Shown: positions 42,301 to 61,289, numbered from the stretch's first letter. The stretch: 64,000 nt of DNA from an uncultured Gammaproteobacteria bacterium (GCA_951812995.1 CATOTD010000003.1:152825-216824), one strand, 5' to 3'. Program-made: numbers and translations. Notes: generated from the sequence alone by a model not told the origin.

Positions 42301-44490
42301 AACATTATCCGCAGCTCCTGTAATCTGGACGGTCGTGGTGATCACATCCGCCGTGGTCGTGGTGTCAACCGCCTTAGTCGCATCGGCGGCAACGGCATCA
42401 TGGGTGAGGATGGCAGGGTTACCCGCGATGGTGGTGGCATCATTCCCCGCGATGTCTTGGATGGTGCCGCCGTTTAAGTTAAGACTGTTCTCGGCAATAC
42501 TGATGCCGCCCGGGGTATCATCACCGGTTTGTACCTGGTATTGGAACACCAACGTCTTGCTGCCCGTGCCGCTTTTATAGTCGGCCTGGACGGTATTGCC
42601 GCCGATGACGATGCCTATCCATGGCGTGCCGGTGACAACAACATCCTCACTAAAAGTCACTGTGATGGTGATGACCTCATTCGCCACAAACGCTGTGCCT
42701 GAGGCTGGATTGCTAATGGTCACCGTGCTGATGGTTGGGGGCGTGTCGTCAACAGTCAGTTCAATATCGGGCTCACCATTACCGTCATCATCGGCTATAC
42801 CTGCTTCCTCCGCACCATCCTCCAGACGCTTGGCAGCATCAGGCGACAAGCCCTCTTCAGTTATTTCATCTACCAAGTCTTCCAGGACTTCGCCCGTTGT
42901 TTTTGACTCGCCTCCTCTTACACCCGATTCTACACCCGAAATGGCCGCCAGTGCCTTGCCGTATTCGTTGGCGGCATCGTCACCCGTCGTTGGCTTGCCG
43001 TCTTTATCCACTGTCAGCTTGACCGGGCTCGATACCAGGTCATCAGCATCGGCTGTGTCATCATCACCCGTGATACCAAAGGACTTGGCTACCGCGGCCT
43101 GTTGCGCGACAACGGCTTCGGGAGTGATGTCCGTGATGCTGGTTGCAGAGGCACCGTTATCACCACCGGCAAGACCAACCTTGCGCGTGGCAAGCTCGGT
43201 TAAAGAATTGATGTTGACCGTCTTGGTTGCACCCGCTGCCGGGGCCTGGGTAATCACCCGCAAGTCGCTGGTCAAGTCTTTATCTGCATTCGTTGCTTCG
43301 TCTCGATAGTCGGCGGCGGCATTCTCGTCTACGACCTTAATCAGGATAAGGCCGTCATAGGCGCGGGTGATGGTGACCGTGTAGGTGCCATCATCATTGA
43401 CCTTGGTCGTGCCGAGTGCTGTGCCATCGGCCGCATACACGGTCACTTCCAGACCATGGCCAGCAATCACTGGACCGGCCGTGACAGTGCCGCTTACGGT
43501 AAAGCCGGGGACGGTCTCGGTCTCGGTGGACGTGACGGTTTTGGTAAAACCCTTAGCATCAGTGTAGGTGACGGCAACCCGTAGCTGCTGGCCTTGGTCA
43601 GTACTAGCGACAGTGTAAGTGGCTTGGTCCGCACCCGTGATAGGGTTCCAGGTGTTGCCATTGGTGGAGCGTTGCCATTGATAGCTAAACTCGCCATCCC
43701 CATTGCCATCGGGGTCGTCGGTGGCCGTGGTAGCTGTGAGTTGTTGACCGACTGCCGGGGTGCCGTCTATCGCAAAGGTCGCATCGCCACTATTCCCGGC
43801 CGCTTTACTGCTGTCGCTACTCCCACCGCCCGAGACGGCGAAACCGACCGCACCCAGTAAGGCCACGGCACCCGCTAATCCCGCACTACGATCGAGGCCG
43901 CCATCACTGCTTGTAGTTGCCGTTTCAGCACTTGTGTCGCTGGCTACTGCTTCGGCGGTCGTCTCGGCCACTGCTTCGGTTGTCGTCTCGGCCGTGGCGG
44001 TTGCTTGGGCGGTCGTCTCGGTCGCGGCGGCTTCTTGGGCCGCTGTTGCTGCTACTATCTCTTGGCCAAGTTGCTGATTCAATATATCTTCAAGCTCGCT
44101 GTTGCCTGTAGCCAATGCCAGCAGTGCTTGCAACGCACCTTGGTCATGGGCCTGGGCATAGATAAAGATACTGCCGTCACTCAAGGCCGTACCCTGGGTG
44201 GCGGGGGTGATGACATACTCGCCATTGTCATCTGCGCTGTCTTGATGATGCGGCAAGGCGACCTGGCAGGATGTCGCATCATCAACACAGACCGTGTAGA
44301 AGTCTTCAAGAATGACGACCGTACCATCGGCGTATTGCAGAACCAAGTCGTCACCTTCACGCATGACCAGGACATTGGCCTTGAGCGTGAGATTGTCTAT
44401 ATCGCTGATACGGTACTGATGACCCGCTTCGGTCTGGATGCGGTTGGTATTACCGTTTATGGGGTTGATGATGACGGGTTTAGTTGGCAC
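298..44490 (-). CDS. Giant T1SS-type repetitive adhesin (14,730 aa): Bap-like N-terminal prefix domain, Ig-like domain array, 8 x [RTX beta-roll / T1SS-C-term-like domain / LVIVD beta-propeller / linker domain] supermodules, C-terminal secretion domain
   Basis: Single uninterrupted 44,193-nt ORF on the minus strand. GTG start at 44490 with GGAGA 7 nt upstream, and the N-terminus is parallel to the paralog ([10 protein letters not shown] vs MSSKPVVINP). The N-terminus has a ...[22 protein letters not shown]... motif typical of Bap/LapA-like prefix domains. There are many GGAGxDTLxGG nonapeptides, and repeats of the [20 protein letters not shown] type matching the LVIVD repeat family. The C-terminus ...DRFVLD...[19 protein letters not shown]...NYFAVI* resembles the VCA0849-type T1SS C-terminal domain. 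Stop is TAG at 298-300. Confidence 0.9.
300..31300 (-). repeat. Eight tandem coding supermodules (2.4-4.3 kb each): RTX nonapeptide block(s) + FxF(T/A)PGHGxDTIxDF..KIDLS domain + 7-8-blade LVIVD-type propeller + [14 protein letters not shown] linker domain
   Basis: The [14 protein letters not shown]-containing domain recurs 8 times in the translated protein, at about nt 5630, 8570, 10990, 15240, 19570, 22690, 26300 and 28880. Large near-identical DNA blocks recur, e.g. identical antisense ORFs at 11118..11339 and 19719..19940 (offset 8601 bp). Confidence 0.7.
301..585 (-). other. C-terminal T1SS-type secretion/targeting domain of the 14,730-aa protein (last ~95 aa)
   Basis: [38 protein letters not shown]...[10 protein letters not shown] at the extreme C-terminus. 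The same sequence, ending DYFSVI, closes the paralog (44840..45125). The pattern matches RTX/VCA0849-type uncleaved C-terminal secretion signals. Confidence 0.5.
34752..36420 (-). repeat. Copy A of a perfectly identical ~1.67-kb direct repeat (tandem period 1833 bp, equal to 611 codons)
   Basis: Antisense ORFs 34762..35079, 34928..35185, 35339..35554, 35500..35775, 35708..36238 and 36171..36377 are each letter-for-letter identical to ORFs shifted by exactly +1833 nt. The sequence diverges upstream of about 34750 and downstream of about 36420. Confidence 0.8.
36585..38253 (-). repeat. Copy B of the perfectly identical ~1.67-kb direct repeat
   Basis: Same as copy A, shifted by +1833 nt. A more diverged third copy lies at about 32.6-34.4 kb. 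Confidence 0.8.
38870..40370 (-). repeat. Five tandem 300-bp (100-codon) near-identical coding repeats (Ig-like domain units)
   Basis: Identical 60-aa antisense ORFs at 38919, 39219, 39519 and 39819. The sequence block gatggactcattaccggccgtgtcggtttgttttatgcggatag recurs at 38888, 39188, 39488, 39788 and 40088. Confidence 0.8.
44161..44490 (-). other. N-terminal Bap/LapA-like prefix (retention-type) domain, ~110 aa, conserved between both giant proteins
   Basis: [14 protein letters not shown]...[39 protein letters not shown]... is about 75% identical to residues 1-110 of the paralog (coded at 55040..55372). The DDLVL...DG..V.I.DF(Y/F) pattern is characteristic of prefix domains of T1SS giant adhesins, as far as I recall. 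Confidence 0.45.
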
Positions 44491-44660
44491 GGGTGTTCTC
44501 CATGATGCTTGATTATTAAATAAGTTTAATGGCTAACATGTTTGGTAACTTAACTGCCCTTAATGATGCTACAGCTATCGCTTGTCTGTCAATAGACAAT
44601 CTTTGTGATTAGACAACAATACTGAGGCGGGCGGTCGCCCACTGATGACACGGCTTCAAG
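44491..44660 (-). promoter_or_regulatory. Conserved leader/promoter block upstream of giant gene 1
   Basis: About 85% identical to 55373..55545 upstream of gene 2 (gtttaat.gctaacatgtttggt ... gcccttaatgatgctacagctat.gcttg.ctgtcaa.agacaa.ctttg..att..acaacaatactgaggcgggc.gtcgcc). On the coding strand it contains a TTGACA hexamer. GGAGA RBS before the GTG. Confidence 0.4.
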
Positions 44661-44706
44661 CAAGGTCTGTAGGCAAACTTTATATCCTTGCTACCTTGCT
44701 ACCTTG

Positions 44707-44840
44707 CTATCTGCCAGCCGCCGACAAGGAAGTCAGCCTCGGTCGCGCCTTTGAGGCGGTCATCATCGCCAGCGTTTTTGGGCTTGGCCAAGCCGACCGA
44801 CCCCTATATTAAAAAATAGGCCGCACATCAACCGCCTTAA
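44707..44840 (-). repeat. Conserved 3' flank of giant gene 2 (copy of 166..300)
   Basis: See the 166..300 feature. It is preceded by a ccttgcta x3 direct repeat at about 44688..44712. Confidence 0.7.
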
Positions 44841-47800
44841 ATCACCGAAAAATAATCGGTGAAAGTGGCATCGCTTATCAGCGTATGATCGATGTTTTGG
44901 ATAGTCATGTAGACCAAGGTGTGATCGTCTGCGCTGACGATATTGGCATGGTCACCGTTATCTGCCACCGCCAGATTCAGGGCGGCCAAGGTGTTCTCAA
45001 GGCCAGTCACGGTATCTATTTGAATGCGGTCGTTCTGGCCCGTGTTAAAGTCGGTGATGATGTCGGTATCTGCGGCCAGCGCATTGGTATCCAGTACAAA
45101 CCTATCCGCACCCGCACCGCCGGTTAAGGTGTCGATGCCCGCACCGCCTTCGAGGCGGTTGGCATTCGCATCGCCGGTTAAGGTGTCGGCTTGGGCGGAG
45201 CCGATGAGGTTTTCGATGTTGAGCAAGACATCGTCCGCCGCCCAGCCCTTGGCGTTCTGCGTATTGTCGGACAAGTCTACCGTGACACCAGCATCAGACT
45301 GGTCATAGCTCACGGTATCTACACCGCCCTTACCATCGATAAGGTCGGCGTTAGCGGTGGCGGCGTAGCTAAGACCAGCATCATCGCCAATAGTCGCGCC
45401 GCTATTGAAGTTCACGCTGTGTACCACTGCGGTGGAGGGGTTACCGTCAAGGTCGGTGAGCACGATCGAAAATTCGCGCACGCGGTCGGTGGCATCCGCC
45501 ACATTGGTATTGTCATAGCGCAAGGCGGCGAGGATGGCTTCAACCTCTATGGTCGTGAGTTCGCTGTTGTCGGTCTTGGTTACGGTAATGGTGTCGTCGG
45601 CATCCACCCAGGCAATATCGATGCCGGTGATACCGGCAATCGTGACATCGCTCAAGCTGGCATCGTTACCGCCGATGGCGAGGGTCAGGTCCACGCCCAT
45701 GGCATTGCTACCATAGACCAGTTGTTCGTTGCTGTTATCCAGTCCCGTTGCGGTAATGGTGATGGTGCTAATCGTAGGAAATAGCGGCAGTTCAATGACC
45801 TGTACGCTGTCATCATTATAGGCACTGACCAGGGCGTAGGCACGGCCGTCGATGACCGTGGTGGTGATGTCCTCTGCACCATCCAATAAGGTGTTGGCAT
45901 CCGCATTAGTAATCGTGCCTGCGGGCGTGGGCTTTTTCGGATCGGAGATGTCGATGATCTGTACCCCGTCATCAACGTAGGCGGCGACCAGGGCGTAGGT
46001 CTTGCCGGCTATCATCACCGTGGTGATGGCACGGGCACCATTCAATGCGGTAAATGGGCTATTCGCGTCCTGGTTATCATCGACAATCGCGGCCGTGGGC
46101 GTGGGCTTGTGCGGGTTGGAGATGTCGATGATCTGTACCCCATCATCCCAATAGGCGGCGACCAGGGCGTAGGTTTTGTCGGCTATCACCACCGTGGTGA
46201 TGGCGATTGCGCCATCCAGGGCAGTGTAGGGTGTATTAGCATCCGCTGTGCTGTCAGTTATCGCGGCAACATGACTAGGGGCCGCAGGCGTTGTGATGTT
46301 GATAATCTGTACCCCGTTATCACCATAGGCAGCAACCAGCGCGTAGGTCTTGCCACCCACCACCACCGTGGTGATGGCGGTTGCGCCATTCAGTGTGGTG
46401 TAGGGGCTATCGGCATCTTTATTGTTGTCGACAATGGCCGCCGTGGCCGTGGGCATGGCGGGGTCGGAGATGTCGATAATCTGTACCCCGTCATCCCAAT
46501 AGGCGGCGACCAGGGCGTAGGTCGCATCGCCAATATTCACCGTGGTGATGCCCTGGGCACCATCCAGGGCGGTGAATGTAGCCCCATCGGTGATGGCGAC
46601 CGTGGGCTTGGGCTTGTTCGGGTTGCTAATGTCGATAATCTGTACCCCGTCATCGCCATCGGCGGCGACTAGCGCGTAGGTGCTAACACCGATCTTCACC
46701 GTGGTGATTGCATATGGGCTAACCAGTGCGACTGCGGTCTCGTCATCATCATCATCGCTAATCGAGGCCGTGGGTGTGGGCATGGCTGGTTTGGAGATGT
46801 TGAGTATCTGTACCTCGTCAAAAATCCAGGAAGTGACCAGGGCGTAGGGAATGCCGCCGATGACCACCGTGGTGATGGACTCTGGATTACTCAGCTTGAT
46901 GTCGCCACCATTGTTTTCAATATTACCCCTCGCCACCAGGGCCTGTAAGGCAACATCATCGCCCGCCGTGGCCTTAGCTCCCAAGGCCACACCTGCGGTC
47001 AGTGCCGCATCGTCGAGTATGCTGTAGGTGGTTTTAAGTGCCAGGGACGACGGATCACTGCGTTCAGCGTAGATAAAATGATCGTCCGTCAACGCCCCTT
47101 TCAATATCCCTTCCAGCTTGATGGTGTTGCCTTTGCTGGTGGTAATGACTGTATTGCCATTGCCATCATCAACCGTTGCGTCCTGCACAGCTTTCAGGTT
47201 GGTAAAGCCAGGAATGGCGGAGAGATCTATTTTATTATTACCGGTGGTAAAATCAGTAATGGTGTCCGCGCCGTGACCTGCGGCAAAGACAAAGGTATCA
47301 TCGTCCGCACCGCCCGTTAAGGTGTCATCCCCGGCCCCGCCAGTAAGCGTGTCATCCTCCGCCCCGCTGATAAGCGTGTCATCCCCGGCCCCGCCGTACA
47401 GGGTGTCATTGCCATCGGCGCCGTCGAGCCGATTGACATCCCGATCACCAATAAGCACATCGTTATGCGCCGAACCAATCAGGTTCTCGATGTCGATGAG
47501 CCTATCATCCGTGGCATCCGTGTTGCCAAGGGTCTGTGCCGTGCCTACCTTGTTCAGATTGACATACACGCCAGTCACGCCCGCAACCGCAGTCGCCAGC
47601 CTGTTGACTGCATCCGCCGCCACGATGTACGGCGCAACTTCTGTCGCATTCTCATACGAGGCGGTATCCGTGCCTGCGCCGCCGATAAGTGTGTCATTAC
47701 CCGCGCCACCGATAAACGTGTCATTATCCGCGCCGCCGATAAGCCAGTCATTGCCATCGCCGCCGTTGAGTGTGTCATCGCCCGCATCGCCGAAAAGCAC

Positions 47801-50800
47801 GTCATCGCCATCACCGCCGTTTAAGGTATCGATGCCATCGCCGCCGTAGAGTGTGTCATCGCCCGTGCCGCCGTAGAGTGTGTCATCGCCCGCATCGCCG
47901 TTTAAGGTATCCGCATCGCCGCCGCCCATGAGGTGGTCATCACCCGCGCCGCCGTCCAGCCGATTGACCCCAGCATCGCCAATAAGCACATCGTCATGGA
48001 TTGAGCCGATGAGATTTTCGATACTGGAGAGTGTATCGCCCCGTGCATCGGTCACCACGGTGTTGGTGGCATTGGTCGTCTGTGCATCGGCCTTGGTCAG
48101 ATTGACATACACGCCGGTTATGGCTACATCAGCCGCAAGCCCGCTGTCTGCCGCTAACACGGTGTACGCCATACCGGTCGCTGCCGCCACCGCATACGAG
48201 GCCGTATCTATGTCATCGCCGCCGTCCAATGTGTCACCACCCGCGCCGCCATATAAAGTGTCATTGCCCGCGCCGCCGTTTAAGATATCAACACCCGCAT
48301 CGCCGATAAGCGTGTCATCTCCCCCCTCGCCGTTTAAGGTATCACCGCCGCCGTTGCCAGCTAACTCATTAGCATTCGCATCGCCGGTTAGCGTGTCGGC
48401 ATGGGTTGAGCCATCAATGTTTTCGATGTTGAGCAAAATATCACCCACTGCCCAGCCGCGGGCGTTCTGCGTATTGTCACCCAAGTTTACCGTAACACCC
48501 GCCAATGCCCCGGCATAGCTCACGGTATCGACACCGCCCTTGCCATCGATAATATCGGCGTTGGCGGTGATTTGGACACCTTGAAAGATCTCATCGGTGT
48601 CATCGCCAATGATCGCGCCGCTGTTGAAGTTCACGCGGTGTACCGTGGGGGTGGAGTCTAGCCCGTCCGCATCAGTCAACACGATCGAAAATTCGCGCAC
48701 GCCATTGTTGGCGGTTTTTGGATCGGTATTGTCATAGCGCAAGGTAGCGAGGATGGCCTCGACCTCAATGGTCGTGAGCTCGCTGTTGTCGGTCTTGGTT
48801 ACGGTAATGGTGTTCGCGGTATTATCCCAGACAATGTTAAGGCCGGTGATACCGGCAATCGTCACATCGCGGGCATCGTCATTGGCCGCCCCGCCTATCG
48901 CCAGTACCGTACCCGTACCATAGGCCAGTTGTTCGTTGCCATCGGTATCCAAGCCCGTTGCGGTAATCGTAATCGTGCTTATCGTTGCCGTCAGCGGCAG
49001 TTCGATGACCTGTACGCCGTCATCCCCATAAGCACTAACCAGGGCGTAGGCACGGCCGTCGATGACCGTGGTCGTGATGTCCTCTGCACCATGCAGTGCG
49101 GTATTGTCACCATCATCAGTAATCGCGGTCACCGCGATTGGGTTCTCGGGATCAGATATATCAATGATCTGTACCCCGCCATCATCATCGCTACCATAGG
49201 TGGTGCCCAGGGCGTAGGTCTTACCGGCGATGACTATGGTCGTGATACCGTATACGCCATCCAGTACGAAGCCATTTTGTTCATCGTAAATCGCGGTCGT
49301 GGGCGTGGGATTGTGTGGGTCGCTGATGTCGATAATCTGTACCCCGTCATCATTATTGGCGGTGACCAGCGCGTAGGTCTTGCCAGCGATCTTCACCGTG
49401 GTGATGGCGATTGCACCATCCAGGGCGGTCTTGTCACCATCATCAGTAATCGCGGCCGTGGGCGTGGGATCATCCGGGTCGGAGATGTCGATGATCTGTA
49501 CCCCGTCATCATCATAGGCGGCGACCAGCGCGTAGGTCTTGCCGCCCACCACCACCGTGGTGATGGCGGTGGCACCCAACAGTGCGGTGTAGCCGCCCTC
49601 GCCATCGCTAATCGCAGCCGTGGGCTTGGGCTTGTTCGGGTCGGTGATGTCGATGATCTGTACCCCATCATCATCATAGGCGGCGACCAGCGCGTAGGTC
49701 GCATCGCTGATCTTCACCGTGGTGATGGCGCGCCCGCCACCGAGTGCGGTGTAGGGGCTATCCTCATCCTGGTTGTCATCAGTAATCGCGGCCGTGGGCT
49801 TAGGCATGGCGGGATTGGAGATGTCAATGATCTGTACCCTATCCTCACCCTCGGCGGCGACCAGGGCGTAGGTACGCGGCACACCGGTCGGGTCATCAAT
49901 GACCACCGTGGTGATGGAATATGCGCCCTTAAGTGCGGTGTAGCCGCCTTTGTCATCGGTAATCGTGGCCGTGGGCATGGGATTGTCCGGATCGGAGATG
50001 TTGAGTATCTGTACCCCGTTACTATCATGGGCGGCGACCAGGGCGTAGGGAATGCCGCCGATGACCACCGTGGTGATGGACTCTGGAGACTCCAGCGCGG
50101 TGTCGTCGGTAATATTGCCCCTTGCCACCGGGGCCTGTAAGACGACATCATCGCCCGCCGTGGCCTTAGCTCCCAAGACCACACCCGTGGTCAATGCCGC
50201 ATTGTTGAGTATGCTGTAGGGGGTTTGTAGTGCCAAGGTGGGCGGTATGGGGGCGTAGATAAAATCATCGTCCGTCAACGCCCCTTCCAAGACCCCAGTC
50301 AGCGTGATGGTGTTGCCAAGACGGGTGGTGATGACCGTGTTGCCATTGCCATCATCTTCTGTCACAGCCTGTACTGCGGCAAAGTTAGTTAAACCAACAA
50401 TGGCAGACAGATCGATTATATTGTTACCGTTGGTAAAATCGGCAATGACATCTACACCATGACCTGGGGCAAAGACAAACCTATCCGCACCCGCACCGCC
50501 TTCAAGCACGTCATCGCCCATACCGCCGGTCAAGACATTGGCTTGTTTATCGCCAGTCAGTTCGTCGTTGTGGTCGGAGCCGATGAGGTTCTCAATATTG
50601 GTGAGCACATCGCCTTTAGCCCAGCCATTGGCATTATTGTTATTGTCGGACAAGTCCACGGTAACACCGGCATCAGAATTGGTATAGCTCACAGTATCTG
50701 TGCCACCTTGACCATCGAAGTGTTCATGACCCGCGGTGGCCGTGTAGGTATTAGCCCCCGCATCGCCGATAAAACTGTGGACGCGGTGGGCGTTACTGTC

Positions 50801-53800
50801 TACTACTGCCACATGGGTGAGGATGGCAGGGTTACCCGCAATGTCGGTAATGTTGCCCGTGATGGCATTGGCATCAATGCTGATACCATCGACATCGGTG
50901 TCCTCATCAACCACCGTATAACGAAAGACCAGCGTGGTCGGACTAGATAGCACACCCACATAGCGGATCTGTTTGGGCGTGCCGCCAATATCAATGCTGA
51001 TCGTTGGCGCGCGGCCGATAATGCTGATCGCCTCATTAAAAGTGACCGTGATGATGATGTTGTCGCCAGTAACGTAGCTACCATTTGGGTTGGCATTGGG
51101 GGTAATCGCGATATTGTCTATGGTCGGGCGAGTGGTTTTGATCCTGATCTCACCTTCATTGCGGCCAGTATCGTCATTGCTATTAACAAGAGAGACATTG
51201 CCCGCCACATCGGTTTGGCGTACCTGTATACGGCCTACTGCATAAGTTCCATCGGCAAGGTTAAAGCTGTTGCCCATACCAGGTCTCCAGTTCCCGCCGC
51301 CATCAATCGAGTACTCCCAGGTGGCACCCGCTTCAATACCTGCGACATTGATGGTCGGGTTATTGGTGATGCCGTCATTGATCGTGATGGTGCCAGGGGT
51401 CAGGGCGAAAGCCGGAGCAGTCGGACTGGTGGTGTCGATGGTCAGGATAAAGGGCACACTGGTAGCACTGGCAGCGATGACATTACCGTCTCCATCCACC
51501 GCCACCACTTGGGCGCGAAAACTCGGTGTCGCACCATCGGGCAAGGCGGACGGGGTGTACGTCCAGGCCATGCTGGCACCCAGGGTGGCCGCATCGATCG
51601 TGTGCAACAAGGTAGCACCATTGTATATCCGTATGACTTCATTAGCATTCAAGGCCGCGGTGATGGTGCCGCTTAAGGTCGGGGTGGTGTCGTCCGTTAC
51701 ACCGTTGTTGGCCAAGTCATCTATCTTGCTACCAACATTATCCTCGGCAGCGTCTATGGTGACGGTGGTGTTCAGTCGCGGTAATTGCGCATCGACTTGT
51801 TTAGTGAGGTCGGGGCCAACGGTTGTATGGGCAAGGGTGGCATCATTACCGGCCGTGTCTTTGATCGTGGCACCGACAGGCAATACAATGTTTCTGGTCG
51901 TGATGCTGATGCCATTGTTGTCGCTGTCGCCGACCACGGGGCTGTAGCTAAAAACCAGTTGGGTGGTGCCATTGCCACTTTCATAGTCGGCCTGTTTGTT
52001 CGTGCCGCCAATATTGATGAAGATATGCGGCACACCGACCACTGTGACTGCTTCATTAAAGGTAAGCGTGATTTCAATAGGCTCACCGGTATTAAAGGTA
52101 TTGCCTGCACGCGGTGTGTTGATGGCAATGCCCGTTACCGACGGGGCCGTGGTGTCATAGATGATTTGGGCATCATTGCTACCGACCTCCGATATATTGC
52201 CCGCCACATCGGTCTGGCGGACGCGGATGGCATTGGCGTTATAGGTGCCCTCGGCGGTGCCGAGGTTGAAGCTTGTGCCCGTGCCGTCTTGCCAGCTATC
52301 ATTGTTGATGGAATACTCCCAGGTCGCACCCGCTTCAAGGTCGGTAACCGTGACAGTCCGGTTATTGGTGCGGTTGTCACCTACTGTGCCGGTGTCGGTA
52401 AAGGTGATGCCGGGGGGCAAGGCCTCGGTGTCGATGGTGATTGCCGTGGTCGTGCCCGCGCGTGATACATTACCGGCCGCATCGGTTTGGCGCACCTGAA
52501 TATCATCCGCGTTGTAGGTGATGTTGGTACCTAGTTCAAAGGTGTTGCCCACGCCCTTTTTCCAGTCGGGCGTGCCATCATTGCCATTGATTGTATATTC
52601 CCAGGTCGCACCCGCTTCAAGACCCGTGACCGTGATGGTTGGGTTATTGGTAATGCGGTCGCTGGTATTGGTGCCCGTGTCGATAAAGGTGATGCCGGGG
52701 GGCAAGGCCTCGGTGTCTATGGTGATGGGGTTGGCATTGTTACCCGCGGTGGATTGATTGCCGGCCACATCGGTTTGGCGGACGCGGATGGCATTGGCGC
52801 TATAGGTGCCATCGTCGGTGCCGAGGCTGAAGGTTGTGCCCGTGCCAGCTCGCCAGTCGGGCGTGCCATCATTGCCATTGATTGTATATTCCCAGGTCGC
52901 ACCCGCTTCAAGACCCGTGACCGTGATAGTCGGGTTGTTGCTGATGTTGTCGCTGGTATTGGTGCCCGTATCGATAAAGGTGATACCAGGGGGCAAGGCC
53001 TCGGTGTCGATGGTAATCTTCGTGGTCGTGCCCACGCGTGATCTATTACCCGCCGCATCGGTTTGGCGTACCTGAATATCACCCGCTTCGTAACTGGGGT
53101 TGGTTAGTTCAAAGGTGGTGTCCGTGCCTGGGTTCCAGTTCGTGCCGCTGTCTGTTGAGTACTCCCAAGTCGCACCTGCTTCAATATTCCTCACCGTCAT
53201 AGTCGGATCGGAAGTAATACCATCAGCGATGTTAGTGTCATCGGCCAAGGCCAGACCAGGTGCCGATGGCGCGCGGGTGTCGATGGTCAAGGTAAAGGTG
53301 GCGGGGACACCAAAGGTGTTGGTGTCTGTATTGACTACCTGAATGCGATAGCTGGCAGTCGCACCATGACCCAAGGCCGGGGTTTGTGTGTACGTCCAGT
53401 TCTGACCATCTACGGTCGCCGTGCCGAGTAATACGCCATTGTTGTAAACCTGTACGACTTCATTGGTGGCCAGGGGCGCGCTAATGGTACCGCTTAAGGT
53501 CGGGGTGGTGTCGTTGGTGGTATTGCCCGTGTCTAAATCCGTTGGGGAAGCAAGTACGTCCGCGGCATTGCTACCAACATTATCCGCAGCCCCTGTAATC
53601 TCGACGGTCGTGGTGATCTCATCCGCCGTGGTCGTGGTGTCAACCGCCTTGTCGGTCGCGGCGGCAACGGCATCATGGTCACGGTTGGCATCATTGCCCG
53701 CAGTATCGGTGATCGTACCACCGTTTAAGTTAAGACTGTTCTCGGCAATACTGATGCCATCAGCATCGTTTTCACCGTCTTGCACGGTGTATTGAAAGGT

Positions 53801-55372
53801 CAGCGTGTCAGTGGCCGTGGTGCCACCGGTATAGCGCGCCGTGCGAGTGTTGGTGCCGATAAGAATGTCTATGGTCGGCGTGCCCGTTACGATGACATCC
53901 TCACTAAAAGTCACCGTGATGGTGATGACCTCATTCACCACAAACGCCGTGCCTGAGGCTGGATTGCTAATGGTCACCGCACTGATGGTTGGGGGCGTGT
54001 CGTCAACAGTCAGTTCAACATCGGTACTCGCACTCGTCGCACCATCCTCCAGACGCTTGGCAGCATCAGGCGACAAGCCCTCTTCAGTTATTTCATCTTT
54101 TAATTCATCAAGGGCTTCGCCCGTTGTTTTTGACTCGCCTTCTTCTACGCCCGAGACCGCCGCCAGTGCCTTGCCGTATTCGTTGGCGGCATCGTCACCC
54201 GTCGTTGGCTTGCCGTCTTTATCCACCGTCAGCTTGACCGGGCTCGATACCAGGTCATCAGCATCAGCTGTGTCATCATCACCCGTGATACCAAAGGACT
54301 TGGCAACCGCGGCTTGTGCATCGGTGACGGCTTCGGGAGTGATGTCCGTGATACTGGTTGCAGAGGCACCGTTATCACCACCGGCAAGACCAACCTTACG
54401 CGTGGCCAGCTCGGTCAAGGGGTTGATATTGGCCGTCTTGGTCGCACCCGCTGCCGGAGCCTCAACAATCACCCGCAAGTCGCTGGTCAGGTCTTTGTCT
54501 GCCTTCGTTGCTTCGTCTCGGTAGTCGGCGGCGGGGTTGGTGTCTATGACCTTAATCAGGATAAGGCCAGCATAGGCGCGGGTGATGGTGACCGTGTAGG
54601 TGCCATCATCATTGACCTTGGTCGTGCCAAGTTCGGTGCCATCGGCCGCATAGACAGTCACCGTCAACCCATCACCGGCAATCACCGGACCGGCCGTGAC
54701 AGCACCGCTTACGGTAAAGCCGACGGGGGTGGGCGTGTCGCCGCCGCCATCACCACCCGCGGGTGTGGTAGCACCACTGCTACTGCCCCCACCACCCGCG
54801 GCAGCAACGCCACCGATTGCACCGAGTACGCCCAAGGCACCGAGTAGTGTCCCACTACCGATGCCGCCCTGGTCATCACCGCCGGTAGTCGTCTCGGCGG
54901 TTGTTGTCTCGGCGGTTGTTGTCTCGGCGGACATCATGACATCACCTGCAAGTTGTTGGTTCAATATATCTTCAAGCTCGCCGTTACCCGCGGCCAATGT
55001 CAGCAGTGCTTGCAACGCACCCTGGTCATGGGCCTGGACATAGATAAAGATACTCCCATCACTCAAGGCCGTGCCGCTTGTGGCGGGGGTGACGACATAC
55101 TCGCCATTGTCATCTGCGCTGTCTTGATGATGCGGCAAGGCGACCTGGCAGGATGTTGAATCGTCAACACAGGCCGTGTAGAAGTCTTCAAGAATGACGA
55201 CCGTGCCATCGGCGTAGTGCAGGACCAAGTCGTCCCCTTCACGCATGACCAGCACATTGGTCTTGAGCGTGAGATTGTCTATATCGGTGATGCGGTAATG
55301 GGTGCTGACCTCGGTCTGGATGCGGTTGGTATTGCCGCTTATGGGATTGATGACAACAGGCTTGGATGACAT
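44837..55372 (-). CDS. Giant T1SS-type repetitive adhesin paralog (3,511 aa) with the same N-terminal prefix domain, Ig-like domains, 2 RTX/LVIVD supermodules and the same C-terminal secretion domain
   Basis: Uninterrupted 10.5-kb ORF. ATG start at 55372 with GAGGA RBS. N-terminal about 140 aa and C-terminal about 90 aa are near-identical to the 14,730-aa protein. Internal [10 protein letters not shown](T/A)LRY linker domains occur twice. Stop is TAA at the position homologous to the TAG of gene 1. Confidence 0.9.
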   Translation of the reverse strand: MSSKPVVINPISGNTNRIQTEVSTHYRITDIDNLTLKTNVLVMREGDDLVLHYADGTVVILEDFYTACVDDSTSCQVALPHHQDSADDNGEYVVTPATSGTALSDGSIFIYVQAHDQGALQALLTLAAGNGELEDILNQQLAGDVMMSAETTTAETTTAETTTGGDDQGGIGSGTLLGALGVLGAIGGVAAAGGGGSSSGATTPAGGDGGGDTPTPVGFTVSGAVTAGPVIAGDGLTVTVYAADGTELGTTKVNDDGTYTVTITRAYAGLILIKVIDTNPAADYRDEATKADKDLTSDLRVIVEAPAAGATKTANINPLTELATRKVGLAGGDNGASATSITDITPEAVTDAQAAVAKSFGITGDDDTADADDLVSSPVKLTVDKDGKPTTGDDAANEYGKALAAVSGVEEGESKTTGEALDELKDEITEEGLSPDAAKRLEDGATSASTDVELTVDDTPPTISAVTISNPASGTAFVVNEVITITVTFSEDVIVTGTPTIDILIGTNTRTARYTGGTTATDTLTFQYTVQDGENDADGISIAENSLNLNGGTITDTAGNDANRDHDAVAAATDKAVDTTTTADEITTTVEITGAADNVGSNAADVLASPTDLDTGNTTNDTTPTLSGTISAPLATNEVVQVYNNGVLLGTATVDGQNWTYTQTPALGHGATASYRIQVVNTDTNTFGVPATFTLTIDTRAPSAPGLALADDTNIADGITSDPTMTVRNIEAGATWEYSTDSGTNWNPGTDTTFELTNPSYEAGDIQVRQTDAAGNRSRVGTTTKITIDTEALPPGITFIDTGTNTSDNISNNPTITVTGLEAGATWEYTINGNDGTPDWRAGTGTTFSLGTDDGTYSANAIRVRQTDVAGNQSTAGNNANPITIDTEALPPGITFIDTGTNTSDRITNNPTITVTGLEAGATWEYTINGNDGTPDWKKGVGNTFELGTNITYNADDIQVRQTDAAGNVSRAGTTTAITIDTEALPPGITFTDTGTVGDNRTNNRTVTVTDLEAGATWEYSINNDSWQDGTGTSFNLGTAEGTYNANAIRVRQTDVAGNISEVGSNDAQIIYDTTAPSVTGIAINTPRAGNTFNTGEPIEITLTFNEAVTVVGVPHIFINIGGTNKQADYESGNGTTQLVFSYSPVVGDSDNNGISITTRNIVLPVGATIKDTAGNDATLAHTTVGPDLTKQVDAQLPRLNTTVTIDAAEDNVGSKIDDLANNGVTDDTTPTLSGTITAALNANEVIRIYNGATLLHTIDAATLGASMAWTYTPSALPDGATPSFRAQVVAVDGDGNVIAASATSVPFILTIDTTSPTAPAFALTPGTITINDGITNNPTINVAGIEAGATWEYSIDGGGNWRPGMGNSFNLADGTYAVGRIQVRQTDVAGNVSLVNSNDDTGRNEGEIRIKTTRPTIDNIAITPNANPNGSYVTGDNIIITVTFNEAISIIGRAPTISIDIGGTPKQIRYVGVLSSPTTLVFRYTVVDEDTDVDGISIDANAITGNITDIAGNPAILTHVAVVDSNAHRVHSFIGDAGANTYTATAGHEHFDGQGGTDTVSYTNSDAGVTVDLSDNNNNANGWAKGDVLTNIENLIGSDHNDELTGDKQANVLTGGMGDDVLEGGAGADRFVFAPGHGVDVIADFTNGNNIIDLSAIVGLTNFAAVQAVTEDDGNGNTVITTRLGNTITLTGVLEGALTDDDFIYAPIPPTLALQTPYSILNNAALTTGVVLGAKATAGDDVVLQAPVARGNITDDTALESPESITTVVIGGIPYALVAAHDSNGVQILNISDPDNPMPTATITDDKGGYTALKGAYSITTVVIDDPTGVPRTYALVAAEGEDRVQIIDISNPAMPKPTAAITDDNQDEDSPYTALGGGRAITTVKISDATYALVAAYDDDGVQIIDITDPNKPKPTAAISDGEGGYTALLGATAITTVVVGGKTYALVAAYDDDGVQIIDISDPDDPTPTAAITDDGDKTALDGAIAITTVKIAGKTYALVTANNDDGVQIIDISDPHNPTPTTAIYDEQNGFVLDGVYGITTIVIAGKTYALGTTYGSDDDGGVQIIDISDPENPIAVTAITDDGDNTALHGAEDITTTVIDGRAYALVSAYGDDGVQVIELPLTATISTITITATGLDTDGNEQLAYGTGTVLAIGGAANDDARDVTIAGITGLNIVWDNTANTITVTKTDNSELTTIEVEAILATLRYDNTDPKTANNGVREFSIVLTDADGLDSTPTVHRVNFNSGAIIGDDTDEIFQGVQITANADIIDGKGGVDTVSYAGALAGVTVNLGDNTQNARGWAVGDILLNIENIDGSTHADTLTGDANANELAGNGGGDTLNGEGGDDTLIGDAGVDILNGGAGNDTLYGGAGGDTLDGGDDIDTASYAVAAATGMAYTVLAADSGLAADVAITGVYVNLTKADAQTTNATNTVVTDARGDTLSSIENLIGSIHDDVLIGDAGVNRLDGGAGDDHLMGGGDADTLNGDAGDDTLYGGTGDDTLYGGDGIDTLNGGDGDDVLFGDAGDDTLNGGDGNDWLIGGADNDTFIGGAGNDTLIGGAGTDTASYENATEVAPYIVAADAVNRLATAVAGVTGVYVNLNKVGTAQTLGNTDATDDRLIDIENLIGSAHNDVLIGDRDVNRLDGADGNDTLYGGAGDDTLISGAEDDTLTGGAGDDTLTGGADDDTFVFAAGHGADTITDFTTGNNKIDLSAIPGFTNLKAVQDATVDDGNGNTVITTSKGNTIKLEGILKGALTDDHFIYAERSDPSSLALKTTYSILDDAALTAGVALGAKATAGDDVALQALVARGNIENNGGDIKLSNPESITTVVIGGIPYALVTSWIFDEVQILNISKPAMPTPTASISDDDDDETAVALVSPYAITTVKIGVSTYALVAADGDDGVQIIDISNPNKPKPTVAITDGATFTALDGAQGITTVNIGDATYALVAAYWDDGVQIIDISDPAMPTATAAIVDNNKDADSPYTTLNGATAITTVVVGGKTYALVAAYGDNGVQIINITTPAAPSHVAAITDSTADANTPYTALDGAIAITTVVIADKTYALVAAYWDDGVQIIDISNPHKPTPTAAIVDDNQDANSPFTALNGARAITTVMIAGKTYALVAAYVDDGVQIIDISDPKKPTPAGTITNADANTLLDGAEDITTTVIDGRAYALVSAYNDDSVQVIELPLFPTISTITITATGLDNSNEQLVYGSNAMGVDLTLAIGGNDASLSDVTIAGITGIDIAWVDADDTITVTKTDNSELTTIEVEAILAALRYDNTNVADATDRVREFSIVLTDLDGNPSTAVVHSVNFNSGATIGDDAGLSYAATANADLIDGKGGVDTVSYDQSDAGVTVDLSDNTQNAKGWAADDVLLNIENLIGSAQADTLTGDANANRLEGGAGIDTLTGGAGADRFVLDTNALAADTDIITDFNTGQNDRIQIDTVTGLENTLAALNLAVADNGDHANIVSADDHTLVYMTIQNIDHTLISDATFTDYFSVI

Positions 55373-55545
55373 GGATGTTCCTCTGTGGTGGATTGTTAAA
55401 CAGGTTTAATCGCTAACATGTTTGGTGTTTAAGTCTAGTGGCGCGTTGCCCTTAATGATGCTACAGCTATGGCTTGCCTGTCAACAGACAACCTTTGCAA
55501 TTACACAACAATACTGAGGCGGGCAGTCGCCTCAATATTGATGTG
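55373..55545 (-). promoter_or_regulatory. Conserved leader/promoter block upstream of giant gene 2
   Basis: Same conserved block as 44491..44660. GAGGA RBS before the ATG. An IS256-type inverted repeat begins only about 215 bp upstream of the start codon. Confidence 0.4.
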
Positions 55546-55803: not shown

Positions 55804-56852
55804 TTTATTGGCTCAGAGAGGTTAAAAAAACCAATTTGATCCAAAAAGCCGGTAGTGTCCGTACAGCCCTGTTCTCGGCTTTACTTCGTTTTCAAGACGC
55901 ACTGACCCGTTCCAGAAAGCATAAACGCCTCATGTTGTACCTTAGATTCATCAAGCCGATATGCATGTTTGTGCGCGTAATGCCAATGCAAGGAACCGCT
56001 TTGCGGTGTAAATTGCGCTGTGCTCCAAACACAGGTTCGACCCGACTACGAACTTTGGAGCGCGTGCGCTTACCTTGCGCCTTGAGAAACGCTACTTTTT
56101 CCTCTGACCGATAGGCACTGTCAGCCCAGACATCTTTACTGGTATTGCTGTCATCTGGCAGGTCGGCAAAAACCTGCGCGTCATGGACGCTGGCATCAGT
56201 GACCTGATAGTCACGAATCAACTTGTTGTCATGGTCTATCTGGCTGTGGTTCTTGTAAGCAAAATGGCGGCAGCTATGTTTCTTCGTCCAGCGGACAGGG
56301 ACAGCGCCTGCCTTAATCCGTGCATTGTCTTCCCAACGGTTACGCGGCAACAGTGCCGGAATGATCGAGGAGGCAACTATCTGACCCTTGCGAGTGATAT
56401 AAGCCGCCTGGTTCAACGACAACTGCTCAAACAACGATGCCATCAGACCCAGCGCCGCTAACCGATGCTTGAATGCCCAGCAGGTTTTGGTATCAGCGAC
56501 TCGTTGCTGCCTAGCAAGACCCAGAAACTGCTGAAAACTGCAACGGTCTTCGATTTGGTATTCCAACTGAGCATCGCTAAGACCATACAGATTTTGCACA
56601 AGCAGTCCCTTGAACATCATCACTACGTTTGTTGGGCGTTGCCCGCCTGACGCTTACGTTGTTTCTCATGAACCTTGTTCAACAACGACCGAAAAGATCC
56701 CCAGTCAACCGTCTTTTCCAGTTCAGGCAGAGGATTACCCAACTGTTTGAGACGATAGTCTTGAAGATTAAACAGAGAACCGAAAATGTCATTGCTCATG
56801 GAAGTTTCTTTGTCAGTTTGGAAACTTCAACATTGTACCAAATAGAGTCATT
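55786..56852 (-). mobile_element. IS5-family insertion sequence (~1.07 kb) nested inside the IS256 transposase gene
   Basis: It splits the IS256 Tnp between ...IRKAIKKRKG and LFPTDDATRK.... It is flanked by ATTAAT/TTAA at 55782-55787 and 56850-56855 and by short inverted tctattaatg motifs. It carries an IS5-family DDE transposase. Confidence 0.55.
55892..56799 (-). pseudogene. IS5-family DDE transposase (~301 aa) with an in-frame TAG after codon 58
   Basis: N-terminal MSNDIFGSLFNLQDYRLKQLGNPLPELEKTVDWGSFRSLLNKVHEKQRKRQAGNAQQT, then TAG, then in the same frame VMMFKGLLVQNLYGLSDAQLEYQIEDRCSFQQFLGL...IVASSIIPA...ADSAYRSEE.... These are typical IS5/IS4-superfamily motifs. Confidence 0.7.
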
Positions 56853-57591
56853 AATAGATATCCCTTTACGTTTTTTGATAGCTTTCCTGATGACGCTGTT
56901 GAGCGATGCAATGGCGTTGGTGGTATAGATTGTCTTGCGCATGTCCTGCGGGTAATCAAACAGGGTGTTGAGGTTCTGCCAATGACTCTGCCAGGAACGG
57001 CTGGTCTTAGGGTATTTGGCATCCCATTCGTCACCAAAGACATCAAGCACCAACAGTGCTTCCGCCTCCGTAGCTGACGGGTAGATTTGCTACAAGTCGA
57101 CTACAACCGCCTTGTAGTCCTTCCAGGTAACATACTGCATCGCGTGCCTGATCCTATGCACAATGCATCGCTAGATGCGGGTTTGCGGGTAGACGGTATT
57201 GATGAGATCAGGAAAACTCTTGAGTCCGTCAACACAGGCAATCAGGATGTCTCGTACACCGCGGTTATGAAGTTCGGTCAAGACATTGAGCCAGAACTTG
57301 GCACCTTCGTGCTCTGACAGCCACAGCCCTAAAAGCGCTTTGTGCCCGTCCAGGTTCACGCCCAGTGCCAGATAGACAGCCTTGTTGATGACTTTCTTGT
57401 CCTGGCGGATTTTAACGACTATGCAGTCAAGGTATGCGCTGGGGTATATCAGCACCAGTGGCCGATTGCCACGCAATCACCTTTGCTGTCACGCGCGAGA
57501 GCAGACTGGTTGAGACCGCCACGCCCTACATTTCCTGAAACAGCGCGACAATGTCACAGGTGGTATTGCCTTTGGCATAGAGACTGAGAAC
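56850..57591 (-). pseudogene. IS256-family transposase, central fragments (frameshifted; in-frame TAG in FQEM*GV)
   Basis: ORFs 56796..57053 and 57171..57476 plus an upstream frame reading IGLVLSLYAKGNTTCDIVALFQEM*GVAVSTSLLSRVTAKVIAWQS. It needs at least 2 frameshifts and has one in-frame amber at a conserved Tyr position. Confidence 0.6.
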
Positions 57592-61040: not shown

Positions 61041-61289
61041 TTTTAAATAGGTAAGAAAATTGCCGAGGCCATGCGCTGTATAATTCGGGTAATCGTTTTA
61101 TTATTTTTGTCCGCTATTATTGCCGCAATCTCGATGTTCCTGGCGCAATTATACAATTTCTGCGGGTCTACTGAATCAAGTATATAAAATCCGATTTATA
61201 ATCATAGGATTTCATAATCATTGACAGCAAGGATGACAAAAAATAATGCTGTAATGATAATCGTAGCCTTGTATGCAAACCCACTCATG

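What the first reader, a model, noticed from the sequence alone, without database searches (positions are those of the whole stretch)
44837..55372. Tandem paralog with conserved termini but only 2 supermodules
Gene 2 keeps the same N-terminal ~140 aa and C-terminal ~90 aa as gene 1, and the same leader and 3' flank. It is 4-fold shorter. It lacks the YQWQ-type Ig domain that gene 1 has at its N-terminus. This points to whole-cassette duplication followed by module gain/loss, or a pair that are exported by the same transporter.
Basis: seen in the sequence. Interest (0 to 1): 0.55.

Follow-up and report, generated by a model that had tools for sequence, protein, structure and literature searches.

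The report
Tandem giant RTX surface-protein paralogs
Two neighbouring giant genes (3,511 and 14,730 codons) are diverged copies of one calcium-binding surface-protein gene that keep the same control region, the same start and the same secretion-type end but differ in the number of internal building blocks, which is the usual way such adhesin-like genes evolve.

Summary
Gene 2 (44837-55372, minus strand, 3,511 aa) lies upstream of gene 1 (298-44490, minus strand, 14,730 aa). Gene 1 alone has a YQWQ Ig-like domain (aa ~232-325). Gene 2 has 2 supermodules and gene 1 has 8.

Both look like RTX proteins exported by type I secretion, of the adhesin kind: an N-terminal domain distantly related to BapA_N, a glycine/alanine-rich hydrophobic linker, Ig-like extenders, and a calcium-binding beta-roll with a serralysin-like C-terminus. 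Each supermodule is a cap domain homologous to the protein's own C-terminus, a 7-bladed propeller, an unnamed domain and an RTX block.

At least five other large proteins in public data carry the same two ends around different middles, and the ends are mosaics. So this is a multigene family with duplicated cassettes, module gain and loss, and gene conversion. No transporter gene is in the window, so shared export is inferred. This is a new member of a known kind, of modest interest.

The parts
44837..55372 (-). Gene 2 (g2): 3,511-aa RTX protein, upstream member of the pair
   Evidence: Intact ORF. Pfam HemolysinCabind E 1.9e-54 (10 stretches), LVIVD and Big_13.
298..44490 (-). Gene 1 (g1): 14,730-aa RTX protein, GTG start aligned with the ATG of g2
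   Evidence: Intact ORF. Pfam HemolysinCabind E 1.7e-181 and 2.9e-221 in two thirds of the protein, plus LVIVD, Big_13 and Peptidase_M10_C.
55373..55531 (-). g2 leader: promoter-like TTGACA-18-CATCAT (55484-55455), 5' UTR of about 80 nt, AGAGGA ribosome-binding site
   Evidence: About 85% identical to the g1 leader. Promoter scan.
44491..44639 (-). g1 leader: the same promoter-like site (44592-44563), 5' UTR, GGAGAA ribosome-binding site
44715..44836 (-). g2 3'-flank element: weak terminator-like hairpin with a T-run directly after the stop, then a relic of RTX-like coding sequence
   Evidence: Identical to 297-176 apart from one T indel. Terminator-like site. Relic ORF '..AGDDDRLKGATEADFLVGG..'.
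176..297 (-). g1 3'-flank element (second copy)
54950..55372 (-). g2 N-terminal domain, aa 1-141 (candidate retention/anchor domain, distantly related to BapA_N, with the protein's only two cysteines, C68 and C75)
   Evidence: 86% identical to g1. 131 HMMER relatives, almost all at protein N-termini. PF22783 below threshold in 25 of 30 members. AF2 model pLDDT 82.8. Cys count.
44068..44490 (-). g1 N-terminal domain, aa 1-141
54752..54868 (-). g2 glycine/alanine-rich hydrophobic segment, aa 169-207, preceded by a Thr/Ala/Glu-rich linker
   Evidence: Longest stretch in the protein without charged or amide residues; highest 19-aa hydropathy window (1.81). The same feature is seen across the family.
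43816..43887 (-). g1 hydrophobic segment, aa 202-225
43516..43797 (-). YQWQ Ig-like domain, g1 aa ~232-325, absent from g2
   Evidence: Weak ZirU-family hit (38 bits against a cut-off of 100).
53003..54724 (-). Second conserved block of g2 (aa 217-790): Big_6-like Ig domain, a ~130-aa segment with no Pfam match that I call 'helical' without a structure prediction, and the first extenders; equals g1 43507-41728
   Evidence: 86% DNA identity over 1.78 kb. 88% aa identity, dN/dS 0.32. Big_6 hit.
50873..54115 (-). g2 Ig-like extender region, aa ~420-1500
   Evidence: Big_13 E 5e-18 in 4 stretches. Repeat periods of 95-100 aa.
47387..50572 (-). g2 supermodule 1 (aa 1601-2662): cap-like X domain, 7 LVIVD blades, Y domain, RTX block
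44840..47386 (-). g2 supermodule 2 plus C-terminus (aa 2663-3511)
   Evidence: Alignment A6. In the AF2 model the propeller part has pLDDT above 90. It matches 7-bladed propellers in the PDB.
4591..30768 (-). g1 supermodules S1-S8 (aa 4575-13300)
   Evidence: 8 X domains, 8 propellers and 8 Y domains. Identity matrix.
44840..45148 (-). g2 C-terminal domain (aa 3409-3511), ending ..DYFSVI: last RTX turns plus a secretion-signal-type end
   Evidence: Aligns to the C-terminal parts of the serralysin, ZapA and PueAB models. Same domain in P0001, P0004, P0005, P0019 and P0141.
301..612 (-). g1 C-terminal domain (aa 14627-14730), ending ..NYFAVI
55892..58753 (-). Cluster of decayed insertion-sequence fragments (IS5, IS256, IS3) a few hundred bases upstream of the g2 leader (context only, not part of the cassette)
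   Evidence: Partial, sub-threshold transposase hits.

Best explanation
g1 and g2 are tandem, diverged paralogs from a multigene family of giant calcium-binding RTX proteins of the type I secretion (T1SS) adhesin kind.

Shown by sequence:
- The cassette was duplicated in tandem.
- The copies differ by gain and loss of whole modules: Ig-like extenders, one YQWQ Ig domain, and 2 versus 8 supermodules.
- Patches of the two ends were exchanged by gene conversion among family members.

Inferred mechanism:
- The unfolded chain leaves C-terminus first through an ABC/MFP/TolC-type T1SS that recognises the serralysin-like C-terminal domain.
- RTX blocks fold on binding extracellular calcium and ratchet the chain outward.
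- The N-terminal 141-aa domain, with its conserved Cys pair, folds before export and stays behind as a plug or anchor. The Thr/Ala/Glu-rich linker and the Gly/Ala hydrophobic stretch would occupy the channel or membrane.
- The Ig extenders and the 7-bladed propellers are displayed as binding surfaces.
- The two ends are kept alike because all family members must fit the same export and anchoring machinery, while the passengers are free to vary.
For: Duplicated cassette:
- The leader, N-terminus, second block, C-terminus and 3' flank are all collinear between the genes.
- Promoter-like and terminator-like sites sit at equivalent positions.
- Both ORFs are intact. dN/dS is 0.20-0.32 in the N-terminal blocks with dS 0.27-0.36.

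RTX and T1SS character:
- HemolysinCabind E-values run from 1e-54 to 1e-221.
- The C-terminal 120-134 aa align to the C-terminal regions of serralysin, ZapA and PueAB, which are T1SS substrates.
- The internal X domain passes the Pfam Peptidase_M10_C threshold (31.8 bits against 20.7).
- There is no N-terminal signal peptide. The only hydrophobic stretch starts at aa ~170-200.

Adhesin-like build:
- Big_13 and Big_6 extenders.
- The N-terminal domain family has 131 relatives, nearly all at the N-termini of large repetitive proteins.
- It shows weak BapA_N similarity in 25 of 30 members.
- It folds confidently (pLDDT 82.8).
- The only two Cys of each protein lie in it.

Family with constant ends and a variable middle:
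- P0001, P0004, P0005 and P0019 share both ends but carry cadherin-like, subtilisin-like or propeller passengers.
- P0003, P0004, P0005 and P0019 all lie on one 2.04-Mb contig.

Gene conversion:
- The 3' end is a mosaic.
- P0001 and P0002 are mosaics of g1-like and g2-like residues.

Module turnover:
- Supermodule identity matrix and 2.2-kb internal repeats at 95-97% identity.

Known kind:
- RTX adhesins of 1,500-15,000 aa, their 'mix-and-match' modularity and species with more than one adhesin are described in bioRxiv 10.1101/2025.09.30.679566.
Against: - No T1SS gene (ABC, MFP or OMP) and no LapG/LapD-type regulator lies in the window. Only 297 nt downstream of g1 are available.
- The N-terminal domain does not reach the curated threshold of BapA_N (Pfam 18.5 bits against 27; NCBIfam 22.7 against 35). 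It gave no hit to any other curated N-terminal domain model.
- The C-terminal 120-134 aa gave no hit to any dedicated T1SS-target model at E<=1.
- Expression of either gene is untested.
- Repeat copy numbers inside g1 depend on an assembly I cannot check.
Confidence: 0.75

Rival explanations
1. Assembly artefact: g2 is a collapsed or chimeric copy of g1, or the adjacency was created by a wrong join at the repeated 122-nt or 150-nt identical tracts.
For: The genes are highly repetitive. Two exact or near-exact tracts of 122 and 150 nt are shared at the 3' ends. g1 holds 2.2-kb internal repeats at 95-97% identity. The literature warns that such genes are often misassembled from short reads.
Against: Homologous parts of g1 and g2 differ by 13-25% throughout. 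No g1-g2 match of at least 250 nt reaches 93% identity. The g2-g1 spacer has its own ~75 nt of unique sequence between the 3' element and the g1 leader. g2 and the flanking housekeeping proteins are recorded on one 417-kb contig. Separate family members exist elsewhere.
Confidence: 0.05
2. Simple recent duplicate with no shared functional constraint: the ends look alike only because they have not yet diverged, and one copy (probably the short g2) is redundant and on its way to decay.
For: dN/dS of the last ~100 codons is 0.76. Decayed IS fragments lie next to the pair. Fragmentary family members exist: P0002 (463 aa) and P0143 (98 aa) on one contig.
Against: A 10.5-kb ORF without a single stop is unlikely in a decaying gene. 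dN/dS is 0.2-0.3 over the N-terminal ~790 aa with dS ~0.3. The same ends are kept in relatives whose N-terminal domains are only ~50% identical, on another organism's contig. The leader and 3' flank are more conserved than synonymous sites.
Confidence: 0.1
3. Released exoproteins rather than anchored adhesins: the proteins are fully secreted (for example matrix, S-layer-like or toxin-like RTX proteins), and the N-terminal domain has a role other than retention.
For: The retention role is only an analogy. The domain has no supra-threshold BapA_N hit, no hit to any other curated N-terminal model and no structural match. There is no conserved LapG-type di-alanine site: g2 has LAAG, g1 has LATG and the family consensus is AQGN. 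Family members carry enzyme passengers such as the subtilisin-like domain of P0001 and P0004. Internal serralysin-type caps resemble secreted enzymes more than fibrillar adhesins.
Against: The N-terminal position is strictly kept in 131 relatives. The domain is followed in the family by a linker and a hydrophobic stretch, as in BapA-type proteins (BapA comparison from my own knowledge). The only two Cys of each protein lie in it. Ig-like extender arrays are typical of surface-anchored fibres.
Confidence: 0.15

Closest known systems
RTX adhesins exported by type I secretion (LapA and MapA of Pseudomonas fluorescens, MpIBP of Marinomonas primoryensis, FrhA of Vibrio cholerae), as defined in bioRxiv 10.1101/2025.09.30.679566
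   Same: Giant size within the reported 1,500-15,000 aa range. [quoted passage not shown] 'Mix-and-match' modular evolution. More than one adhesin per genome.
   Different: The N-terminal domain is not a recognisable LapA-type retention module and has no conserved LapG di-alanine site. The passenger is dominated by repeated supermodules of cap, 7-bladed propeller, Y domain and RTX block, instead of one ligand-binding region. RTX blocks are spread through the protein. No cognate T1SS or LapD/LapG genes lie beside the genes in the window.
BapA of Salmonella enterica (BapA prefix-like domain: Pfam PF22783, NCBIfam NF033677)
   Same: The 'GDDLVLxYADGTxVxLxDFY' core of the N-terminal domain matches the BapA_N models weakly in 25 of 30 family members. 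As I recall, BapA also has a Gly/Ala-rich hydrophobic stretch after its N-terminal domain, followed by Ig-like repeats and T1SS export.
   Different: Scores are below the curated cut-offs (18.5 against 27 bits; 22.7 against 35 bits) and cover only part of the model. BapA has no propeller/RTX supermodules. The bapBCD transporter genes adjoin bapA (my own knowledge), whereas nothing comparable is in this window.
Serralysin/lipase-group T1SS substrates (serralysin, ZapA, PueA/PueB, LipA)
   Different: There is no protease or lipase catalytic domain in g1 or g2. Scores against the whole-protein models are far below cut-off (for example 153 against 500 bits).
Paired large adhesins in one organism (LapA/MapA; the two Desulfovibrio vulgaris adhesins, PMC13090378; BapA/SiiE)
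   Same: Two large RTX-type surface proteins of different length coexist in one genome and may have complementary roles.
   Different: Here the two genes are directly tandem, share leader and flank sequences, and show gene-conversion mosaics. I did not find that arrangement reported for those pairs in the papers I read.

Membership tests
RTX adhesin (T1SS, LapA/MpIBP/BapA class) | N-terminal retention module that folds without calcium and plugs the secretion channel | tested here: inconclusive
   A folded 141-aa N-terminal domain exists (AF2 pLDDT 82.8) and is N-terminal in 131 relatives. It gives only sub-threshold BapA_N hits, no PDB sequence hit and no significant fold match. Function is not testable here.
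RTX adhesin (T1SS, LapA/MpIBP/BapA class) | Flexible linker after the N-terminal domain, long enough to span the channel | tested here: met
   A Thr/Ala/Glu/Gly-rich low-complexity stretch with a Gly/Ala hydrophobic segment lies at g2 aa 142-216 and g1 aa 142-231. The AF2 model is disordered after aa 144.
RTX adhesin (T1SS, LapA/MpIBP/BapA class) | Tandem array of Ig-like extender domains | tested here: met
   Big_13 E 2.6e-27 (7 stretches) in g1 and 5e-18 (4 stretches) in g2, plus Big_6. Repeats of 95-100 aa.
RTX adhesin (T1SS, LapA/MpIBP/BapA class) | C-terminal beta-roll of GGxGxDxUx nonapeptides | tested here: met
   HemolysinCabind E 1.9e-54 in g2, with 45 stretches in the last third of g1. 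Repeats are visible directly before both C-termini.
RTX adhesin (T1SS, LapA/MpIBP/BapA class) | C-terminal T1SS secretion signal recognised by a cognate ABC transporter | tested here: inconclusive
   The C-terminal 120-134 aa align to the C-terminal ends of the serralysin, ZapA and PueAB models, all below whole-protein cut-offs. No dedicated T1SS-target model was hit. The end ..[DN]YF[SA]V[IV] resembles the acidic-then-hydrophobic end of the protease/lipase group (my own knowledge). Secretion itself is not testable here.
RTX adhesin (T1SS, LapA/MpIBP/BapA class) | Adjacent T1SS genes (ABC transporter, membrane-fusion protein, TolC-like outer-membrane protein) | tested here: not met
   None in the window. 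Upstream of g2 lie IS fragments, a CCA-adding enzyme, UppP and a methyltransferase-like gene. Only 297 nt are available downstream of g1. This feature is frequent but not obligatory.
LapA subfamily (LapG/LapD-controlled) | Conserved di-alanine LapG cleavage site, (T/A/P)AA(G/V), after the retention module | tested here: not met
   g2 has LAAG at aa 126-129 but g1 has LATG, and the family consensus at that position is AQGN. No LapG or LapD gene lies in the window.
BapA family (PF22783 / NF033677 N-terminal domain) | BapA prefix-like domain scoring above the curated cut-off | tested here: not met
   Pfam 18.5 bits against 27; NCBIfam 22.7 and 20.9 bits against 35. Only model positions 41-72 are matched. 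25 of 30 family members hit weakly. It is a distant relative at best.
Pore-forming RTX toxins (HlyA/CyaA type) | Hydrophobic pore-forming domain and acylation sites, with an hlyC-type acyltransferase | tested here: not met
   The RTX_toxin model scores 153 bits against a cut-off of 1000 and matches the repeat region only. No acyltransferase gene lies in the window.
Serralysin-family metalloproteases | Zinc-protease catalytic domain N-terminal to the RTX region | tested here: not met
   The Zn_serralysin model scores 153.6 bits against a cut-off of 500, and only model positions ~327-416 (the RTX/C-terminal part) are matched.

The most novel reading that the evidence does not exclude
The supermodules may be fossil whole RTX proteins. 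Each ends in a cap domain (X) that is homologous to the family's real C-terminal secretion domain and 56% identical to the true C-terminus of a relative.

On this reading, giant proteins of this family are built by end-to-end fusion of neighbouring secreted RTX genes. The tandem g2-g1 pair would be one step of that process caught before fusion. A portable 'delivery cassette' would then be kept uniform across the family by gene conversion. It consists of the promoter and 5' UTR with the N-terminal anchor at one end, and the C-terminal signal with the 122-nt 3' element at the other.

The 122-nt flank translates as an RTX-like relic and is ~100% identical in both copies, although the neighbouring codons are not. 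It would then be either a conversion hotspot or a functional 3' element.
Probability: 0.2. Interest if true: 0.55.

Novelty: new member of a known kind. Interest (0 to 1): 0.3.

Why it matters
The pair is a clear natural example of how the largest bacterial proteins change. The export and anchoring ends are held constant and even homogenised between copies, while whole 1,000-aa blocks are added, lost or swapped.

For annotation, it shows that a 14,730-aa and a 3,511-aa ORF side by side are two real genes of one family. They are not a broken gene or an assembly duplicate.

It also defines an N-terminal domain family (131 representative relatives) that current curated models only graze. The internal serralysin-type caps suggest a testable route, fusion of secreted RTX units, by which such giants arise.

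None of this changes the known mechanism of type I secreted adhesins.

Tried and rejected
- Source genome and synteny. An exact 50-mer from the unique region downstream of g1 found nothing in genome contigs. The search for related loci with the alignment of close N-terminal regions found nothing in genome contigs or metagenome contigs; 595-600 pattern matches were all false. A degenerate '[10 protein letters not shown][VA]GL' DNA pattern found nothing in metagenome contigs.
- The look-up of encoding contigs had no record for g2, the CCA enzyme, P0001, P0019, P0142 or P0143. The neighbourhoods of the close relatives, and any T1SS genes, could therefore not be seen.
- Two distant N-terminal-domain relatives (L001, L003) had no T1SS neighbours, but one is a contig-end fragment.
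- L004 turned out to be an internal RTX fragment of a frameshift-ridden contig.
- The search for homologous proteins missed the close large relatives that HMMER found, and the hits it listed were all under 300 aa.
- RNA element in the leader or 3' flank: Rfam gave nothing at gathering thresholds and only chance-level hits at permissive E-values. The 3' flank does not fold better than shuffles (z = 0.22). I rejected a riboswitch or sRNA reading for lack of evidence.
- LapG site: rejected because it is not conserved between the paralogs or in the family.
- Fold match of the N-terminal domain to a solved retention module: none. The afdb50 library was unavailable.
- Organism identity: not determined. 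The housekeeping genes are of the proteobacterial type.

Full report
**Layout.** The window holds two very long minus-strand ORFs. g1 is 298..44490 (14,730 aa, GTG start) and g2 is 44837..55372 (3,511 aa, ATG start). On the coding strand g2 comes first, and 346 nt separate its stop from the g1 start. Upstream of g2 lie decayed fragments of IS5, IS256 and IS3 transposase genes (55892-58753). Beyond them are a CCA-adding enzyme gene, uppP and a methyltransferase-like gene. No gene for a secretion component is present.

**Checking the observation.**
- A global alignment shows aa 1-141 are 86% identical.
- At the DNA level the match starts ~150-158 nt upstream of the start codons and runs to codon 141 (85.6%).
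- Within the shared leader, both genes have TTGACA-18-CATCAT at the same relative place and a purine-rich RBS.
- After an indel-rich linker, g1 has ~110 extra residues that form the YQWQ Ig-like domain (aa ~232-325). This domain has no counterpart anywhere in g2.
- Similarity then resumes for 1.7 kb: g2 aa 217-790 = g1 aa 328-921, at 86% DNA and 88% aa identity.
- At the other end, the last ~103 aa are 78% identical, and the match continues 122 nt past the stop.
- In 30-nt windows the 3' end is a mosaic. g2 45133-44984 is 148/150 identical to g1. The last ~47 codons are only 60-87% identical. The stop codon and the next 122 nt are then identical apart from one T indel. A 50-mer from this flank occurs exactly twice in the window.
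- With dS of 0.27-0.36 in the N-terminal blocks, a neutral 122-nt stretch should carry some 25-30 differences. The flank is therefore either constrained or recently converted.
- g2 has two supermodules with a 1,062-aa period, and g1 has eight. The length ratio is 4.2.

**Not an artefact.**
- Homologous stretches of g1 and g2 differ by 13-25%. No g1-g2 match of at least 250 nt reaches 93% identity.
- The spacer has unique sequence between the 3' element and the g1 leader.
- g2 and the two housekeeping proteins are recorded on one 417-kb contig in public collections.
- Copy numbers of the 95-97% identical internal repeats of g1 cannot be verified here.

**What the proteins are.**
- Both carry large numbers of RTX nonapeptide repeats, with HemolysinCabind E-values from 1.9e-54 to 2.9e-221. 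They also carry Big_13 and Big_6 Ig-like domains and LVIVD repeats.
- The C-terminal 120-134 aa align to the C-terminal parts of the serralysin, ZapA and PueAB models. These are all type I secretion substrates.
- There is no N-terminal signal peptide.

**The N-terminal domain.**
- It had no relatives in the word-indexed search. A full HMMER scan of 1.84 billion representatives found 131 relatives, almost all at the very N-terminus of large repetitive proteins.
- In the family alignment Y26, L49, Y53 and C75 are invariant. C68 and C75 are the only cysteines in each giant protein.
- The domain hits Pfam BapA_N and NCBIfam BapA prefix-like only below threshold, though in 25 of 30 members.
- The AlphaFold2 model is confident (pLDDT 82.8, pTM 0.80): a beta-rich core followed by two helices.
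- The domain is followed by a Thr/Ala/Glu-rich linker and a Gly/Ala-rich hydrophobic stretch. That stretch is the longest segment without charged or amide residues in each protein, and it recurs across the family.
- This order matches the minimal RTX adhesin described in bioRxiv 10.1101/2025.09.30.679566: retention domain, channel-spanning linker, Ig extenders, C-terminal beta-roll with signal. That paper also reports sizes up to 15,000 aa, 'mix-and-match' modularity and species with several adhesins.

**The supermodule.**
- Aligning the ten copies gives this order: an X domain of ~95 aa, a linker, seven LVIVD-type blades of ~57 aa, a Y domain of ~150 aa with no Pfam match, and an RTX block of variable length.
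- The AlphaFold2 model of the last supermodule has pLDDT above 90 over the blades. It matches 7-bladed propellers in the PDB, with LGI1 EPTP at TM 0.80, followed by WD40 propellers.
- The X domain is a serralysin-type C-terminal cap. It passes the Peptidase_M10_C threshold.
- Its profile matches the profile of the family's true C-terminal domain with 97.4% probability (E 1e-11).
- It is 56% identical, right to the end, to the real C-terminus of relative P0003.
- Read in the other phase, each unit (propeller, Y, RTX, cap) looks like the body of a complete secreted RTX protein.

**Relationship of the modules.** g2's two supermodules group with the last two of g1 (73-75% identical) and more loosely with g1 S3. 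g1 S1 and S4-S6 form another group, in which S4 and S6 are 93% identical. This corresponds to a 2.25-kb DNA repeat at 95%. The two genes are thus collinear at both ends, and g1 has extra material in the middle.

**A family, not just a pair.**
- P0001 (2,351 aa), P0004 (4,846), P0005 (3,784) and P0019 (1,237) have the same N-terminal module: N-terminal domain, hydrophobic stretch, Big_6-like domain, and a ~130-aa segment with no Pfam match. They also have the same C-terminus, '..[23 protein letters not shown][SA]V[IV]'.
- Their passengers differ: cadherin-like repeats plus a subtilisin-like domain, or propeller supermodules.
- P0003 (7,882 aa) has the same N-terminal module but ends in an X-type cap.
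- P0003, P0004, P0005 and P0019 sit on one 2.04-Mb contig. P0001 and P0002 have N-termini 81-82% identical to g2 (HMMER E ~1e-77). They sit on 812-kb and 179-kb contigs from the same two sources as the window's contig. Whether that is the same assembly is my inference.
- P0001 and P0002 are mosaics of g1-specific and g2-specific residues. The C-terminal signals are mosaics across members.
- The YQWQ domain sits at other positions in P0001 and P0004.
- In an unrelated metagenome contig (L005), a C-terminus of this family is followed 157 nt later by another RTX gene with a different start.

**Interpretation.** The evidence shows a tandemly duplicated cassette, module gain and loss, purifying selection on the N-terminal ~790 aa, and patchy exchange of the ends among paralogs. 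The following rest on analogy with characterised RTX adhesins, not on a test: export through one T1SS, folding driven by calcium, and retention by the N-terminal domain. The Cys pair would fit a periplasmic location. The rivals are less likely for the reasons given in their entries: an assembly artefact, a decaying redundant copy, and released rather than anchored proteins. The last of these is the most serious.

**Composition.** GC3 is 0.64-0.65 in both giants against 0.39-0.42 in the neighbouring housekeeping genes. Together with the IS debris, this suggests the pair lies on acquired DNA.

**Verdict.** It is a new member (or small family) of a known kind, the giant type I secreted RTX adhesin-like proteins. 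Its own features are the propeller/RTX/cap supermodules and an N-terminal domain that curated models barely detect. Interest is modest (0.3). The more novel reading, giants built by fusing secreted RTX units with a delivery cassette kept uniform by conversion, is not excluded but is unproven.

Noticed in passing
window 298-55372 versus 59038-62594: GC3 of both giant genes is 0.64-0.65, against 0.39-0.42 in the adjacent CCA-adding enzyme, uppP and methyltransferase-like genes. The pair looks compositionally foreign, as on an acquired island.
   Followed up: partly
window 55892-58753 and 63055-63216: A cluster of partial, sub-threshold transposase fragments (IS5 55892-56623, IS256 56796-57476, IS3 57695-58753) lies a few hundred bases upstream of the g2 leader. 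A short ORF at 63055-63216 looked like the start of a transposase to me, but it gave no NCBIfam hit.
   Followed up: partly
window 44715-44836 and 176-297: The 122-nt 3' flank is ~100% identical in both copies, although the neighbouring last 47 codons are only 60-87% identical. It translates (ORF 44791-44699, minus strand) to '..AGDDDRLKGATEADFLVGG..', which looks like a relic of RTX repeats. No Rfam match and no unusual fold.
   Followed up: partly
window ~44680-44705: A small tandem repeat, (GCAAGGTA)x3, lies in the unique part of the g2-g1 spacer, between the 3' element and the g1 leader.
   Followed up: no
g2 aa 1617-1713 and 2679-2775; g1 aa 4591, 5454, 6662, 7694, 9123, 10561, 11394, 12353 (each about +96 aa): Every supermodule contains an internal serralysin-type C-terminal cap (X) ending in '..LTDDxFIY'. 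It is homologous to the family's true C-terminal secretion domain (hhalign 97.4%) and passes the Peptidase_M10_C threshold. These look like fossil secretion ends inside the protein.
   Followed up: yes
window 10582-12819 vs 19168-21420; 34233-36455 vs 36057-38282; 38728-40367: Long direct repeats inside g1 at 95-97% identity (2.2 kb each), plus a 300-nt unit repeated five times at 96%. These indicate recent internal duplications and are likely hotspots for copy-number change and misassembly.
   Followed up: partly
g1 and g2 aa 68 and 75 (window 44266-44289 and 55148-55171): Each giant protein has only two cysteines, both in the N-terminal domain. C75 is invariant, and C68 is present in most of the 30 aligned family members. 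This may be a disulfide formed in the periplasm.
   Followed up: partly
L005:9100-10837: In an ENA metagenome contig (ERZ28548061), a C-terminus of the same family (P0141, '..ADYFEVI') is followed 157 nt later by another RTX protein gene with a different N-terminus. Tandem RTX genes may be common around this family.
   Followed up: partly
P0002 and P0143 (179-kb contig, not in the window): A 463-aa N-terminal fragment very close to g1 and a 98-aa C-terminal fragment of the family lie on the same contig. This may be a disrupted further paralog.
   Followed up: no
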